A DNA stretch of 64,000 nt from the human T2T-CHM13v2.0 reference genome, Homo sapiens. The DNA is taken from assembly GCF_009914755.1 (NCBI RefSeq), contig NC_060929.1, one strand, 5' to 3'. Shown in pieces: positions 40,813 through 53,837 of this stretch; the first letter of the stretch is position 1, and each line of letters opens with the position of its first letter. The notes under the pieces are model-generated. The model did not search any database, had not been told where the DNA came from, and saw nothing but the letters and a program-made list of their open reading frames with translations. The position numbers were made by a program, and so were the translations under genes.

Positions 40813-41989
40813 GAAAAAGCAGACTTTACATTGATAAGATTCAGCTTTTACTTTTGGTTTTACATTTAACTCTAGTAATCGTTAGTTCAATGTTTCATAA
40901 TTTAAACCGTTGACTTAAATTCATCTGATTTGTAATTTCTCTCTTCAGTTTGGCCTATAAGACTAATACTTTAAGCTTTGAAGTAAGATTGTTACTGCCT
41001 TCTCATCTGGGTAGAAATCTGTGTGGTGTATCTTCTACAGTGATAAGTTATGAAGGAAGGCAAATACCCTTCAAAAGAACTGAGACACATAAATGAACTC
41101 ATAGAGCTTAGTTTTTAGGTTATAGCTGGGGAGTGTTGGGTTCTCTTAGATCTTGTAAACAGAGAAAAATTAGCTCCTGCTTCCCTGTCTCTTTTTTTCC
41201 TCCTCTAGTCTTCCCCTTTCCACCCGGCTTCCTGTTTGAGCCTCCCCCATCCATTCTTGAAAGAAATGGAAAATCTTGCTGATGCTTCCCTTGTAGTCTG
41301 CCGCATAGCTAGAGGTGATTGTGGAAGCAGGCACCAACATTTCCCCAGAGGTCTCCTTTAGCCCAGATGTTGCACGATGAAATAACAGATAGTTTATCTC
41401 ATTTTCAGAGCCCTTTCCACATGCATTATCTCACGTTAACCTCTGAGGAAAATAGTGTTAGAAGCCTGCCAGAGGAACCAGTGACTATTTCCTCTCCTTC
41501 CTGCCCCCATCCATCTTAAGTTTTAAATGACGGAGTCGGTGCCAGATCCATTACCTTTCATTCATCACAGTCTTGACTTAGGATTTAGAACACGACACTT
41601 ATTCCTACACATAGGTAAAATGTTCCCATTTGTTAAATGTCACATGTTTCCTGAAAATATCTCTGCTGATAATTATTTACTTGCCATCTCAGAAAAGATT
41701 TTATAAAACACAATTGCTACCTGGAAGTTCCACTTAATATCTGTCAGGGCTGCTTTTGTAGCAGGACCATCAGAATCAACCCAAAGTTAAATAGGAATAT
41801 TTACCTATAATAGGAATAATGCAATACATTTTCATTGCTGCTGTTGCTTCCTTTCTAAAGCTATCTTTAACTACTTAGTCTTTGCTCCCCCTGCAACTTG
41901 ACACCTTTACCATAGGTTAACCCTTTCTCACCTATGTCTGGATCATGTGTCTGCAGTATATATTGCCCTGATCACATTGTATTATAATT

Positions 41990-47767: not shown

Positions 47768-48733
47768 GTAAGTTGGTTTGTTACTTTAGCACAAACTAAG
47801 TATTTTAAATATCATTTCTGTGGTATTATATTTTCTTAATTTTAAGACAAGTAATGCTTTCAAATTAACGTTTCTGTAATTTTTTGTCATCTATGGCTAA
47901 GGAAATTAGGAAAAGTTTTAGATGTTTCTTTTTAGTTTTAGAAAGCTATGATGAGCTCAGTGGCAATATATGGATGGCATTAAGAAAATGTCATATTTGA
48001 GGAGTCTGTGCCTTATACAGGTCATGCTTATTGATTCATTTATTCGTGTGAGTAGACCAGTGATATAAACAGATGTTTACACTAATATTTTCTCTCACCT
48101 AATCCTTTGTGATTGCACAGTATTAAGTAGGGGTAAAGAGTAATTCTGAATATATGAAATAAAGTACAATGAGCCAGCCTGCAAGGGATCAGTTGGCAAA
48201 GCTAGGCAACTAGTTATGCCTACTCAATCCAATGGCAGAGCCTACATTGTTAGCTCTGGAAAGAATCTTTGAGACTACACAGTTTGATACTCATTTTTCA
48301 GATTTGGAAGTTCACATTGGTAAGATTTCAGACAGAGGGAAAGAATGGTAGACCCAAGGACAATTAATTTTTATTCCAGAATTCCTTTAGTAGATTTTTA
48401 TTAAGCACCTACTATTTCCTAGTGTCAAGGATCAAGGTGGCTGTCAACTTCTAGGCTAGTATTTATTTGTACCACATTGTAGGTCATCTACACGATACTA
48501 TTCATCTTTAAGAAACTAGTGTGACAGTGTGTGGCCTTAGAAGTAGAGCTTAAGGAAAAAAAAAAACTTTTTTAGTCCAACTTGATGTTTGTCTAGTAGT
48601 ACCCTATGTACTTGTTTTCAAGTTTCATATATTTCCAACTTGGAGATTCCACCTTAAAATTCAGTTAATTTTCTGTTAATGAAATGACCACTCTCTTACT
48701 TGGCATCTGGTCACCCTTGAGTCCCTCTCTGTT

Positions 48734-48913
48734 CCATTCAGATCTCTTCATCAAGAATTACTGTAATGTCCCCTGTCTCATCCTTCATTGGGAAAGAATT
48801 GCATAATTGTATAAATGAGCTATCCTAATTTCAAATTCATCCTGGAAAAAACTTAGTTCATCTTCTGTCTCCTAAACTTGCTATGTCGTTTCCCACATGT
48901 CATATTTGGGTGA
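48734..48913 (+). repeat. Source copy of a 180 bp local direct repeat (L2-like context)
   Basis: About 92% identical by eye to 50810-50990. Confidence 0.92.
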
Positions 48914-48999
48914 CTATAGTCAAATCCCTGTGTATCCAATTCAGAAACCTAGGAAGTGCTTTAGATTCATTCTTCTGGGAAGAAAAAAATGGCAGCAAG

Positions 49000-49850
49000 A
49001 CTTTTGTCAGCTGAGATCATATTGAATCTGTAGGTAAATTTGAGAAGTCTTGCCATCTTAACAATATTCTGATCCATGTACATGGGTATCTTTCCTTTTA
49101 ATCAAGTTTAAAACTCTTTCAACAATTTTTTGTAGTTTTCTGCATATAAGGCTTGCATTTGTTTCATTAAATTTATTCCTAAGTATTTTATCATTTTTAT
49201 TTTATTGTAAATATTGTTTTTTAATTATATTTTGGGATTGTTTATTGCTAGTTTATAGATATACAATTGACTTTTTATTGAGAAATAATTTATATGCCAT
49301 AAAATTGTCCTTTTAAGGTATGTAATTAAGAGGTTTTTAGTATATTCACAAGGTTGTACATCCAACACCTCTAGTTAATTCCAGAACATTTTCATCACAC
49401 CAAAACAAAACCCAATACTTATTAGCAGTAAATCCCCATCACCCACTCCCCAGCTCCAGGCAACTACTAATCTACTTTCTGTCTTTGGCCTATTTTGGAC
49501 ATTTCATGTAAACAGAATTATACAATACATAGCCTTTTGTGCCTGGCTTCTTTTACCTAGCATAATATTTTCAGAGTTCATTCATGTAGCATTAGTCAGT
49601 TCGTCCTTTTTTGTGGCTAATATTCCATTGTATGAATATGCCACATTTTGTTTACCCAGCCATCAACTGATGGAACCTGTATCTGCGCCACCCCCTCCCC
49701 CCAACTTTTGGCTATTCTAAATGAGACTGCTATGAATATTCATGTCCAGGTTTTTTCATGGATATATCTTTTCGTACAACTGATTTTTGTATATTGATCT
49801 TGTATCCTACAACCTTGCTGAACTCATTCTAATCATTTTTAGTAAATTTC
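49000..49850 (-). mobile_element. Nested old L1M fragments (L1MB-like 3' end inside L1M ORF2); boundaries approximate
   Basis: attgaatctgtaggtaaatttgagaag...gccatcttaacaatatt; ccaggcaactactaatctactttctgtct. Confidence 0.65.
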
Positions 49851-49865
49851 TTGTGCTGCCATCCG

Positions 49866-50339
<474 letters not shown>

Positions 50340-50809
50340 TCTAGAAAGAAGAGCATCCCAAGCAATTAAAGACTGATTCTCACCTCCAGATAGAGCTATG
50401 AGCATTGTTTTCAGGCACGCACAGGATGATTTATTCTTATCTCTTTCACCTCTGGTTCTAGGATGTCTTATCTTTTCCCAAACTGAAACATCTACCATTT
50501 GGTGGATGGATTACTCAGCCTTGTAACTCAGTTTAACGCTTCTATATGTTCGCGTATAATTTTGTCTGCAAGGCATCTAAAAAGTATGCCTCCTTGTGGA
50601 ATGTTCATCACCTCTTAACTAACGGTAATCAGTCTTTTTTCTAAGTAACAAACCAACTGTATTTCTTAGGAAAACTATTTGGAGCCCATGCTGGAAAGTA
50701 GCTCTCCTCAGCCTCTGATCTAACTACATTCAAACTAGATGTGAAAAATGTAGGAATTCTACTTTCCTATTACCTACTGACATCCTAACCCAAGTAAAGC
50801 CTTCTAATG

Positions 50810-50990
50810 CCATTCAGATCTCTTCATCAGGAATTACTGTAATGTCCCCTGTCTCATCCTTCATTGGGAAAGAATTACATAATTGTATTAATGAGCTATC
50901 CTAATTTCATATTCATCCTGGAAAAAACTTAGTTTATCTTCTCTCTCCTAAACTTGCCTGCTTCTTTTCCCACGTGTCATATTTGGATGA
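50810..50990 (+). repeat. Derived copy of the 180 bp direct repeat
   Basis: Matches 48734-48913. Confidence 0.92.
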
Positions 50991-52003
50991 GAGCTAAAAA
51001 CAACAGAAAAATATAAGAAGTTCTAACTTAGACTAAGCTAAGTCAGCTGCTATCAAGTGAGCTTTAGACTCATTGCCTTTCCATGTAAATCAAAGTTCAA
51101 GTGAATTGACCATTGGTGATTGTCTTTTAACCAACTAACAAATTTTTTACTTCTCAGTTCAAGTGATGGGAGAAACATTTTCACCAGCTTTGCTTGCTTT
51201 CTTTCCTTCCCACTGAGACAGTTGCCTTAAGAAGGGTGATTATTCTTCTGAAAACATTTATGAATCTGACAACTATTGGTAATTGAAAATATCATAATTG
51301 GCTGGTTGTGGTGGTTCATGCCTATAATCCCAGCACTTTGGGCGGCTGAGGTGAGCGGATTGCTTGACCCCAGGAGTTTGAAAACAGCCTGGACAACATG
51401 GCAAAACCCATCTCTACAAAAAAATACAAAAAATTAGCCAGGTGTTGCATGATCCTGTGGTCCCAGCTACTCTGGAGGCTCATCTGAGCCTGGGGAGGTT
51501 GAGGCTGCAGTGAGCCTTGGTCACACCACTGTTCTCCAGCCTGGGTGACAGAGTGAGACCCTGTCTCAAAAGCAAGAAAGAAAGGAAGGAAGGGAGGGGA
51601 GAGGAGGGTAGGGGGAGGGAAAGGAAGGAAGAAAGAATAATAATTACTTGTAAACATCCTAACTTGACTGTACAATGTATTTTCTAGTAGACCAATGTTT
51701 CTAAACAGATGAACCAGCTGTCTGGCTGCCCATTGAAAAGAGATACATCTCTCTTCCTGGGCATTGACAAACAGAAAGAACAGGTGAGGGGCATTTAAAG
51801 CCAAATGAAGCATCAACACATATTAAAGAGCCTTAAAGTTACCCCTGCTTAGTTATTTACATGCATTTCAATATTCTGTGAAAAAATTCACTTGAACTTT
51901 GATTTACCTGGAAAGGTAATGAGTCTAATGCTCACTTGATACAGTTGACTTAGCTTAGTCTAAGTTAGAACTTCTTATGTTTTTCTGTTGTTTTTAGCTC
52001 TCA
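50988..52003. repeat. 120 bp inverted repeat (arms 50988-51107 and 51885-52003)
   Basis: Arms are reverse complements with 5 substitutions and 1 indel. Confidence 0.95.
51300..51640 (+). mobile_element. AluJ with purine-rich tail
   Basis: Dimer; tail (GAAA/GGAA/GGGA)n. Confidence 0.88.
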
Positions 52004-52772
52004 GGTCTGGGGACCAGAATTGTAACCATTCAACAAAATAAACAGATTTCTAAATATGAAGTTTAGCCCATGGATTCATGAGGAGGAGAGATTCTTGACC
52101 AATCTAAGTCATGACTACCATAGGATTTTCTAACACCCCTTCCCCAAAATTAAGTTTCAAAAAAATTTTTTTCTCATTTCTTGTGGTTGCACAGCACAAA
52201 ATGAGTCAGAGGAACCAGGAATTTTCTTTTTCCCCACTTTAGTTGACCTTTGTGTTGTGCATATGCCATTTTGTACTTTGAGTAACGTTGTCTCCGAAGG
52301 TTCTGCTTTGGTTTAATGCCGAACATTGGCCGTCCTTAAATAAGGGCCACAGTCCTTGTGGGTATCTCCTTATTGGAGAAATTGCAGGTAAACTTTGTAA
52401 GCAAAGAGGATCTTGCCGATTGGTCTCCTTTGTCTACATGTGTTGTTTGCATCTACCTGGGACTTATAATTATTGTTTGCTTTTCCTTCTCTTTGGCTGC
52501 TTTTGGCCAAACATGTTTTTATCATCCTCATGAAAGATTTAAGTTCCAGAGCTAGCCTTAGATATTTGTGTCTCTTCCTTTTCTTTGGGTTAGCAGGCAT
52601 CTGCCATTAAATACATCGAATTCATTCCATGTTAGTGGGTCACTTCTGATGCCTTTGGCTGTCTGAAGGTTTGGTGAAAAACATATTCAATTATTTTACA
52701 TATTAAAGAAACTACACTAATGTTTAAGGGTTCACTGTGTCTGTGTAGAATTTAACAAACTTTTTTCTTTAG

Positions 52773-52915
52773 TGTCTAGTGACGGTTCATGGCTCAAACT
52801 CAACCTGCACAAAAAATATGACTACTATTACAACACTGATTCAAAAGAGAGTTCCTGGGTCACACCTGAATCATGCTTGTATAAAGAATCATGGCTCACA
52901 GGAAAAGAAATCGAG
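52773..52915 (+). CDS. IQGAP2: IQGAP2 coding exon (inferred 16), WW domain; 143 nt
   Basis: ttctttag| ... GAG|gtagga; VSSDGSWLKLNLHKKYDYYYNTDSKESSWVTP has the W...YYYN...W..P WW signature. Confidence 0.96.
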
Positions 52916-53837
52916 GTAGGAGGTTGGTGTTTGATGGATAACTCTACTGTATAAAGTTAAATTTGACTGGTTTTCTATTTCTGAATCATGGAAGTGATGA
53001 GAGGAACTAACTGATTTATCTGAAGTCTGGATATGTAATAAAGTCTTCATGAACTGCAGTTGAATGTGGCTGCATTGTTACTAATGTACAGAATTTTTTC
53101 CATATTGGCTTAACAAAACCAAATAGAGCAGGGGGAAGAAATATTTCACTATTTATTTGGGATGGTAGATTATCCTAAGAAATCAATCTTAAGATTTTCC
53201 TTGACTTAATTAAGCTCAATTAATGATAATTCCTGGGTTGTCAATATTTAAAAGGTATTTCTTTCCCCCCATCTCAGCCTGCAACTTAACATTGTACCTT
53301 TCAAACCAAAATGTCATTTTTTTCTACAAAGTGCTGGAGAGGGCATCTCTGCCACACATGGCCCCAGCCATCTCCAGGACAGCTTCGGAAGCAAAGAACA
53401 GAGTTGGGCAAAGAGCAGGATGGGTAAACATTAAATGTTTGCTTCTTCCGAGATGGTCATCTTAGCATGTTTTCATTGCTTAACATTTCTAGAGCTCTGG
53501 ATGTACCCATGTCCAAATGTAAGTGCAAACATCACAATTGAGTGTATCTTATACTTTGCTTTCAATTAACTGACATAAAAATTAGCCATGTGTCCATGTA
53601 TTGTACTAACCAAGAGTTAAACAAGATACATTGAACTGGAATTTCTATTTAACTACTAAAGGTCCCTTTTAACTAATCTGTGACCCATATTTGAAAGCTT
53701 TCTTCTACCAGATTTTACTTATTGAAAGCAATTTATCCCTCCTCTCATCTCTTTTTAACCAAACTATATAAATAGTACCTGTTTGAGCTTCTTGTTAGGA
53801 GTAAAGAAATAGTGCATTAGTGAACATAGTGTCATTA

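What the first reader, a model, noticed from the sequence alone, without database searches (positions are those of the whole stretch)
50810..51114. Composite templated insertion: two template switches preserved in the intron before the WW exon
Seen: 50810-50990 is a direct copy (~92% identical by eye) of 48734-48913, about 2 kb upstream. It runs straight into 50988-51107, an inverted copy (~95%) of 51885-52003, about 0.8 kb downstream. The pieces overlap in a TGA microhomology. The entry point CCATT (50810-50814) reappears just after the exit (51110-51114). The upstream copy continues into L2-like sequence while the downstream copy stops, so 48734 looks like the donor. Established: neighbouring fragments in mixed orientation joined at short microhomologies are the signature of FoSTeS/MMBIR or Pol-theta templated insertion, not retrotransposition. 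Inference: one old event within primates added ~300 bp.
Basis: partly seen in the sequence, partly recalled or inferred. Interest (0 to 1): 0.8.

Follow-up and report, generated by a model that had tools for sequence, protein, structure and literature searches.

The report
Old two-piece templated insertion, IQGAP2 intron
A 300-base stretch in an intron of human IQGAP2 is stitched together from copies of two nearby pieces of the same intron, one forward and one flipped, which is the ordinary scar of an old DNA copying slip with no function shown.

Summary
50810-50990 is a direct copy of 48734-48913 (10 substitutions in 179 aligned bases, 2 gaps). 50988-51107 is an inverted copy of 51885-52003 (5 in 119, 1 gap). 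The two copies overlap in TGA, and CCATT flanks the 300-bp block.

Neither piece is a dispersed repeat at the search's sensitivity. In the whole T2T genome each has only its two copies, both in this intron. The same tool found 8142 candidates for a neighbouring true repeat. In the 64-kb window these are the only two low-copy duplicate pairs of 88% identity or more, and they abut.

Best reading (0.75): one microhomology-primed copy-synthesis event with template switching, of the MMBIR/FoSTeS type. It is roughly catarrhine in age, from 5.0% pooled divergence. Segments of 181 and 120 nt copied from 1.9 and 0.78 kb away do not fit typical Pol-theta insertions.

Three things remain inferred, because no primate outgroup sequence was available: which copies are the donors, that it was a single event, and the empty site.

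The mutation class is well documented, so this is a clean new example and not a new kind. One side effect is a predicted 117-bp RNA hairpin within the intron. Interest is modest.

The parts
48734..48913 (+). A1: inferred donor of the direct piece, 1.9 kb upstream of the insertion
   Evidence: Aligns to 50810-50990 at 92.8% over 181 columns. It is the only other copy in the genome. No short repeat flanks it (junction print).
50810..50990 (+). A2: direct copy of A1 and first segment of the 300-bp insertion
   Evidence: 10 substitutions in 179 aligned bases, 2 gap events.
50810..50814 (+). CCATT at the left end of the block. It is shared with the start of A1 (48734-48738) and repeated at 51110-51114
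   Evidence: Junction print. Homology to A1 starts exactly here; the 20 nt before it do not align.
50988..50990 (+). TGA: 3-nt overlap (microhomology) at the switch from template A to template B
   Evidence: A1 ends ...GGGTGA, the reverse complement of B1' starts TGAGAGC..., and the composite reads ...GGATGAGAGC...
50988..51107 (+). B2: inverted copy of 51885-52003 and second segment of the insertion
   Evidence: 95.0% over 120 columns, 5 substitutions in 119 aligned bases, 1 gap.
51108..51109 (+). GA: two bases matching neither template (filler, or too short to assign)
   Evidence: After ...GAATT the B template continues TTTTCACAG, whereas the composite has GA and then CCATT.
51110..51114 (+). 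Second CCATT. It is read as the original target-site copy, so the inferred empty site is ...CTAATG-CCATT-GGTGA...
   Evidence: By my arithmetic, a 5-nt match within about 4 positions of the exit has a chance of about 4/1024.
51885..52003 (-). B1': inferred donor of the inverted piece, 0.78 kb downstream of the insertion
   Evidence: It is the only other copy in the genome. It aligns in reverse complement to 50988-51107.

Best explanation
A single old germline event inserted 300 bp (50810-51109) into the IQGAP2 intron that precedes the exon at 52773-52915. A free 3' end at this site was extended on nearby templates instead of its own. In + strand terms it copied 181 nt of 48734-48913 in direct orientation. 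It then switched at a TGA microhomology to the opposite strand of 51885-52003 and copied 120 nt in inverted orientation. It rejoined the original site with 2 unassigned bases.

The CCATT shared by the site and the start of the upstream template is the microhomology of one outer junction. If synthesis ran leftward, it is the return junction, and that explains why CCATT is present on both sides.

This is microhomology-primed copy synthesis with iterative template switching. It is the MMBIR/FoSTeS class, and from sequence alone it cannot be told apart from break-repair synthesis with template switches.

Shown: the copies, their uniqueness in the genome, the junction sequences, and the equal divergence of the two pieces. 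Inferred: the polarity (composite = recipient), the single event, the enzyme pathway, and the age (roughly catarrhine, from 5.0% pairwise divergence). No function is implied; the insertion is most likely neutral.
For: (1) Both copy pairs are confirmed at the stated coordinates.

(2) Genome-wide, the query 50700-51250 gave 3 of 3 candidates: itself, A1 and B1'. The A1 context 48300-49000 gave 2 of 2. The B1' context 51650-52350 gave 2 of 2. The same tool found 8142 candidates for the neighbouring repeat at 49256-49775. It scored 40 of them, and the 39 non-self hits were 70-76% identical. A family of that divergence would therefore have been seen.

(3) In the window self-comparison there were 250 non-self pairs at E<1e-10. 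Only 4 were at least 88% identical and at least 60 nt long. Two of those are members of a 19-fold family (Alu-type). The other two are these pieces, and they abut with a 3-nt overlap. Two independent events would not be expected to share an endpoint.

(4) The junctions show 3-nt and 5-nt microhomology at 2 of 3 junctions and a 2-nt filler at the third. Neither inferred donor has a flanking repeat.

(5) The divergences of the two pieces are compatible with one age: 10/179 vs 5/119, Fisher p = 0.79; pooled 15/298 = 5.0%, 95% CI 2.8-8.2%.

(6) The class is documented in normal human germlines. Complex insertions copied from several templates in mixed orientation numbered 33 and 26 in two people, most with junction microhomology (PMC8421209, section 10 part 1). 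Insertions of up to 959 bp occur at replicative breakpoint junctions (PMC6902434, passages).
Against: No outgroup genome could be examined. The empty site, the direction of copying and the single-event claim are therefore untested.

One outer junction has no microhomology, only 2 unassigned bases.

The segments (181 and 120 nt) and the template distances (1.9 kb, 0.78 kb) lie outside the ranges of the published germline catalogues that I read. Great-ape template switches have median 12 nt and maximum 128 nt (PMC7954356, passages). MMB-TI templates were searched only within 100 bp of the insertion (PMC8421209). Membership of the class is therefore by analogy of pattern.

Very old repeat families below about 70% identity could escape the genome search, which scores only the best candidates and skips very common words (tool text).

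Gene conversion between the copies would make the age an underestimate.
Confidence: 0.75

Rival explanations
1. Inversion with duplication. The 777 bp between the two B copies (51108-51884) was inverted by staggered breaks. That left B duplicated in inverted orientation at both ends, and the A copy was captured as filler at the left breakpoint. It would still be one complex event, but a rearrangement rather than a simple insertion.
For: B2 and B1' are inverted repeats that exactly bracket 51108-51884. That is the geometry expected of staggered-break inversions; the model itself is recalled, not from a call.
Against: The second CCATT at 51110-51114 would then be a coincidence, about 4/1024 by my arithmetic on the junctions. 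Under simple insertion it is the target site. The model also needs an extra templated piece at the same junction.
Confidence: 0.08
2. Two separate events. One piece was inserted first, and the other was later inserted exactly at its edge.
For: The point estimates of divergence differ slightly: 5.6% for A and 4.2% for B.
Against: The difference is not significant (Fisher p = 0.79). These are the only two low-copy local duplicates in 64 kb, yet they share an endpoint with a 3-nt overlap. An independent hit within a few bases is improbable. Multi-template single events are documented (PMC8421209).
Confidence: 0.07
3. Reverse polarity. 50810-51107 is the ancestral contiguous sequence, and 48734-48913 and 51885-52003 are later copies of its two halves.
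For: Sequence alone gives no direction. Both members of each pair are equally diverged by construction.
Against: It needs two insertions at two sites whose source intervals end at the same 3 bases. Neither 48734-48913 nor 51885-52003 has a flanking short repeat, whereas the composite has one.
Confidence: 0.05
4. Same event, different enzyme pathway. A double-strand break was repaired by polymerase-theta end joining (TMEJ) with iterated templated extension.
For: Priming at minimal microhomology, patchwork inserts of mixed origin and interspersed unassignable bases are described for TMEJ (PMC12426944, passages). The TGA, the CCATT and the GA filler fit that description.
Against: [quoted passage not shown] Here the segments are 181 and 120 nt, copied from 1.9 and 0.78 kb away.
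Confidence: 0.1
5. Both pieces are fragments of dispersed repeat families, or of a retrotransposed chimeric copy, that merely lie next to each other.
For: The region is repeat-rich. Two Alu-like elements lie at 50022-50297 and 51301-51559, and a dispersed repeat lies at 49256-49775.
Against: Each piece has exactly two copies in 3.1 Gb, and the positive control worked. None of the 7 Rfam matches at E up to 1 falls in the pieces. There is no poly(A) or poly(T) at either end, and the flanking repeat is only 5 nt.
Confidence: 0.02

Closest known systems
Complex germline MMBIR-type templated insertions (MMB-TI; PMC8421209)
   Same: Insertions are copied from several nearby templates in forward and reverse orientation, with microhomology at most junctions. 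They occur as germline variants in normal people without a larger rearrangement: 33 and 26 complex events in two individuals.
   Different: That catalogue covers insertions from 10 bp up to read length, with templates searched only within 100 bp. Here the segments are 181 and 120 nt from 1.9 and 0.78 kb away. The event is also old: its two copies differ by about 5%.
Short-range template switches fixed in great-ape genomes (PMC7954356)
   Same: These are evolutionary, lineage-fixed template-switch scars, and they are enriched in introns.
   Different: That model describes one excursion to one alternate template. Copied length has median 12 nt and maximum 128 nt among 1503 gold-standard events. 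Here there are two templates and a 181-nt segment, so such a scan would not report it.
FoSTeS/MMBIR breakpoint-junction insertions at disease CNVs (e.g. PLP1; PMC6902434)
   Same: Iterative template switches produce small to large templated insertions at junctions, up to 959 bp, with microhomology or microhomeology.
   Different: Those insertions sit at the junctions of large copy-number gains. Here no larger duplication is attached: only the two short pairs are found in 64 kb.
Cycles of templated insertions and local n-jumps in cancer genomes (PCAWG; PMC7025897)
   Same: Strings of 2-7 copied templates are inserted at one locus. 'Cycles' return to the host chromosome and re-replicate a stretch of it. 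Local n-jumps show a mix of inverted and non-inverted junctions.
   Different: Those events are somatic and often use templates from other chromosomes. Here the event is germline, the templates are local, and only 5 bp is re-replicated.
Polymerase-theta (TMEJ) templated insertions (PMC12426944)
   Same: Microhomology-primed patchwork of templated pieces with occasional unassignable bases.
   Different: They are generally under 25 bp and copied from the break's immediate flanks.

Membership tests
MMBIR/FoSTeS-type templated insertion | The inserted sequence is a copy of nearby genomic template(s) | tested here: met
   93% and 95% copies lie 1.9 kb upstream and 0.78 kb downstream, and they are the only other copies in the genome.
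MMBIR/FoSTeS-type templated insertion | Microhomology at the template-switch junctions | tested here: met
   2 of 3 junctions have it: CCATT (5 nt) and TGA (3 nt). The third has a 2-nt filler and no microhomology.
MMBIR/FoSTeS-type templated insertion | Several templates, in mixed orientation, joined in one event | tested here: inconclusive
   Two templates, one direct and one inverted, abut. A single event is inferred from the shared endpoint and equal divergence (Fisher p = 0.79). It is not shown.
MMBIR/FoSTeS-type templated insertion | The ancestral allele lacks the insertion (empty site) while the templates are present | not testable with these tools
   No primate or other vertebrate genome besides the window's own is held. 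No paralogous empty site exists in the genome.
MMBIR/FoSTeS-type templated insertion | Replicative origin (collapsed fork, low-processivity synthesis) | not testable with these tools
   Pathway cannot be read from an old scar.
Polymerase-theta (TMEJ) templated insertion | Small insert (generally under 25 bp) copied from sequence flanking the break | tested here: not met
   Segments of 181 and 120 nt were copied from templates 1897 and 778 nt away. The criterion comes from PMC12426944.
L1-mediated retrotransposition / processed insertion | Poly(A) tail, target-site duplication of roughly 7-20 bp, and a source that is a transcript or dispersed family (criteria recalled) | tested here: not met
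   There is no A or T run at either end, and the flanking repeat is only 5 nt. One piece is antisense to the host transcript. Each piece has two copies genome-wide.
   There were 3 of 3, 2 of 2 and 2 of 2 candidates, all in this intron. The repeat at 49256-49775 gave 8142 candidates. Families below about 70% identity may escape the search.
   No L2 model is available. blastn (word size 7) and nhmmer found no relatives of 48300-49010 in the window other than A2, and the genome search found none.

The most novel reading that the evidence does not exclude
The event belongs to a mid-scale class of germline template switching: hundreds of bases copied from templates kilobases away, with no attached copy-number change. 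This class falls between the short-range catalogues (maximum 128 nt; templates within 100 bp) and the kilobase-to-megabase rearrangements, so it is systematically missed. This instance would also have functional consequences. It created a 117-bp near-perfect double-stranded RNA stem inside the IQGAP2 pre-mRNA, 770 nt upstream of the WW-domain exon. That stem would be edited by ADAR, or would alter splicing or processing of the intron in the primates that carry it.
Probability: 0.1. Interest if true: 0.45.

Novelty: new member of a known kind. Interest (0 to 1): 0.3.

Why it matters
This is a clean, datable natural example of a two-template insertion with all three junctions still readable. Both segments are longer, and both templates more distant, than in the published germline catalogues I read. 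It shows that scans limited to short range would miss such events.

It has no demonstrated effect on IQGAP2. The only plausible consequence is the long intronic RNA hairpin it created. As a single instance of a well-known mutational class, it is of modest interest.

Tried and rejected

(3) L2 test of the donor context gave no relatives of the flanks. I tried blastn with word size 7, nhmmer at E up to 10 and the own-genome search at E up to 10. No L2 model is on hand, so the claim is neither confirmed nor refuted.

(4) Soft-masking as a proxy for repeat annotation: window.fa is all upper case, so it carries no information.

(5) Rfam scan of 48000-53000 at E up to 1: 7 matches, all inside the two Alu-like elements and all below gathering score. 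None falls in the pieces.

(6) A third templated piece, or extended homology beyond the stated ends: none. nhmmer extends the pairs by only 1-3 nt, and self-BLAST of 50330-51290 shows only the two pairs.

(7) Pfam on three frames of the exon failed because one frame had stops. I translated the frames singly and scanned the open one.

(8) Dispersed-repeat and retrotransposition readings were rejected, as set out under rival explanations.

(9) One literature search for fixed templated insertions in primates (37 papers held at least 4 of the 5 terms, 15 were listed). I saw the listing and abstract starts only, and none of the 15 concerned this locus or a mid-scale fixed class. That is one search, not proof that nothing is in print.

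Full report
**What is there**

- The direct pair is 48734-48913 (A1) and 50810-50990 (A2). An ungapped core of 148 nt is 96% identical. Gapped alignment covers 181 columns at 92.8%, with 10 substitutions in 179 aligned bases and 2 gap events.
- The inverted pair is 50988-51107 (B2) and 51885-52003 (B1'). The repeat finder reports two arms of 62 nt (97%) and 57 nt (95%), split by a 1-nt gap. Together they cover 120 columns at 95.0%, with 5 substitutions in 119 aligned bases and 1 gap.
- BLAST E values are 1.65e-59 and 2.66e-39 in the window, and 2.9e-68 and 8.8e-45 against the 3.1-Gb genome. Chance is excluded.

**The junctions**

- Left end: the composite reads ...ccttctaatg|CCATTCAGATC... and A1 reads ...ctctctgtt|CCATTCAGATC.... 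Homology starts exactly at CCATT.
- Internal junction: A1 ends ...TTTGGGTGA|ctatag, and the reverse complement of B1' begins ccagacc|TGAGAGCT. The composite reads ...TTTGGATGAGAGCT. The two templates therefore overlap in TGA.
- Right end: the composite reads ...AAGTGAATT|GA|CCATTGGTGA, while the B template continues ...AAGTGAATT|TTTTCACAG. Homology ends at AATT. Two bases are unassigned, and then CCATT recurs.
- The block 50810-51109 is exactly 300 bp.

**Are the pieces repeat families?**

- Against the window's own genome (T2T-CHM13; G000 in the tool), the query 50700-51250 found 3 of 3 candidates: itself, A1 and B1'.
- The A1 context 48300-49000 found 2 of 2: itself and A2 (E up to 10).
- The B1' context 51650-52350 found 2 of 2: itself and B2 (E up to 10).
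- As a positive control for sensitivity, the neighbouring stretch 48914-49900 gave 8142 first-look candidates. Of the 40 scored, 39 were non-self matches at 70-76% identity, covering window positions of about 49256-49775. The tool therefore sees dispersed families of that divergence.
- The tool skips very common words and scores only the best candidates. A very old family below about 70% identity cannot be excluded.
- In the window itself, blastn (word size 7, E up to 0.1) found no further copy of the pieces. Its only extra hit was one weak 63% match of 51879-51975 to 40832-40940 (E 0.045). It was run on three stretches that together cover the pieces and their flanks. nhmmer (E up to 10), run on the two donor contexts and the two flanks of the insertion, found no further match at all.
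- Rfam at E up to 1 gave 7 matches. All lie in the two Alu-like elements (50022-50297 minus strand, 51301-51559 plus strand) and all are below gathering score. None lies in the pieces.

**How exceptional is the abutment?**

A self-comparison of all 64 kb gave 250 non-self pairs at E<1e-10. Only 4 were at least 88% identical and at least 60 nt long. Two of these belong to a family with 19-fold multiplicity in the window (Alu-type). The other two are A1/A2 and B2/B1'. So the only two low-copy local duplications in the window end on the same three bases. This is the main argument that they arose together.

**Age**

- A differs at 10/179 sites (K2P 0.058) and B at 5/119 (K2P 0.043). The two are compatible with one age (Fisher p = 0.79).
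- Pooled divergence is 15/298 = 5.0%, with a 95% CI of 2.8-8.2%.
- Two paralogous copies diverge like two lineages that split at the time of the event. Against recalled neutral divergences (human-orangutan about 3%, human-macaque about 6-7%, human-marmoset about 11%; from memory, not from a call), this places the event around the catarrhine ancestor, somewhere between the orangutan split and the platyrrhine split.
- Gene conversion between the copies would make this a minimum age.
- "Within primates" is thus supported by calculation, not by an outgroup.

**Mechanism**

The pattern has three joins. Position 50809 joins to 48734 (duplication type). Position 48913 joins to 52003 inverted. Position 51885 inverted joins to 51108/51110. 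The segments are short copies of local sequence, and 2 of the 3 joins carry 3-5 nt of microhomology. That is the signature of copy synthesis with iterative template switching.

The CCATT on both sides has a simple reading if synthesis ran leftward. Having copied the site's CCATT, the nascent strand left its template and added 2 bases. It re-copied 51885-52003 from behind. It then jumped ahead at TGA to copy 48913 back to 48734. It finally re-annealed through the freshly copied CCATT to the site's own CCATT. That duplicates exactly the microhomology. The equivalent rightward or double-strand-break versions need a 5-nt staggered end or a return 5 nt behind the departure point. These steps are inference.

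On the choice between pathways:
- Polymerase-theta insertions are described as generally under 25 bp and templated from the break's flanks (PMC12426944, passages). Segments of 181 and 120 nt from 1.9 and 0.78 kb do not fit that.
- Replicative breakpoint junctions carry insertions of up to 959 bp (PMC6902434, passages).
- Strings of 2-7 copied templates that return to and re-replicate the host site are known as cycles of templated insertions (PMC7025897, passages).
- I therefore favour the MMBIR/FoSTeS type. Break-repair synthesis with template switches cannot be told apart from it here.

**What is not shown**

Polarity, the single event and the empty site all need orthologous sequence from other primates, and no tool here holds any.

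Polarity rests on parsimony. One event with the composite as recipient is set against two events whose source intervals end at the same 3 bases. In addition, only the composite has a short flanking repeat.

What I can show is a dispersed repeat starting about 340 nt beyond A1's end. By recollection it looks like an L1 3' portion, not L2.

One rival deserves a real test. B2 and B1' bracket 51108-51884 exactly as in a staggered-break inversion. That reading makes the second CCATT a coincidence of about 4/1024 (my arithmetic), so I give it 0.08.

**Comparison with what is known**

- Complex germline insertions copied from up to several nearby templates in both orientations have been catalogued in normal human genomes. 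There were 33 and 26 per person among calls of at least 25 bp, most with junction microhomology. The templates were searched only within 100 bp, and inserts were limited to read length (PMC8421209: abstract, passages and section 10 part 1).
- In great-ape alignments, 4017 significant template switches were found, of which 1503 are gold-standard. They are enriched in introns. Copied length has median 12 nt and maximum 128 nt (PMC7954356: abstract and passages).
- The present case is the same kind of scar at a larger scale, with two templates. It is a new member of a known kind, not a new mechanism.
- One search for fixed templated insertions in primates listed nothing about this locus (listing only).

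**Side observations**

- On the sense strand of the IQGAP2 pre-mRNA, B2 and B1' are predicted to pair. The duplex energy is -189.9 kcal/mol, against -31.3 +/- 4.9 for 100 shuffles of one arm (lowest shuffle -43.6). In the minimum-energy fold of 50980-52010, 117 B2-B1' pairs form. The insertion thus created a long intronic double-stranded stem. Whether it forms or matters in cells is untested.
- An inverted Alu-like pair (50003-50298 and 51300-51583; 77% complementary in two blocks; duplex -379.4 kcal/mol) straddles the insertion. Its helix would cross the B helix.
- The next exon (52773-52915) in its open frame gives a weak partial WW match: PF00397, E 0.01, 16.3 bits against a cutoff of 26.9.

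**Verdict**

The feature is an ordinary, if unusually legible and fairly large, templated-insertion scar. Interest 0.3.

Noticed in passing
window 50988-51107 with 51885-52003: Both arms lie in the same intron on the transcribed strand. The predicted RNA duplex is -189.9 kcal/mol, against -31.3 +/- 4.9 for 100 shuffles. 117 arm-to-arm pairs form in the MFE fold of 50980-52010. This is a possible long double-stranded RNA (editing substrate) 770 nt upstream of exon 52773-52915.
   Followed up: partly
window 50003-50298 (-) and 51300-51583 (+): An inverted pair of Alu-like elements straddles the insertion. They give SRP-RNA-like Rfam matches below gathering score and are 77% complementary. Their predicted duplex is -379.4 kcal/mol. 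Their helix would cross the B2/B1' helix, so the two cannot both form as nested stems.
   Followed up: partly
window 49256-49775: Dispersed repeat between the upstream donor and the insertion. The genome search gave 8142 candidates and scored 40, of which the 39 non-self hits were 70-76% identical. By recollection it resembles an L1 3' portion; no model was available to name it.
   Followed up: partly
window 51570-51647: A purine-rich GGAA/GGGA-type low-complexity tract follows the second Alu-like element, where its A-tail would be (read).
   Followed up: no
window 52773-52915: The exon in its open frame gives only a weak, partial Pfam WW match (E 0.01, 16.3 bits, cutoff 26.9). The two tryptophans and the proline, spaced as in WW domains, are visible in the translation.
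   Followed up: yes
window 51880-51889: The inverted template stops being copied exactly where it enters an A6 run (GAAAAAATTC). AT-rich and poly(dA:dT) tracts are reported to be enriched around template-switch sites (PMC7954356, section heading seen in the outline). This is a single anecdote.
   Followed up: no
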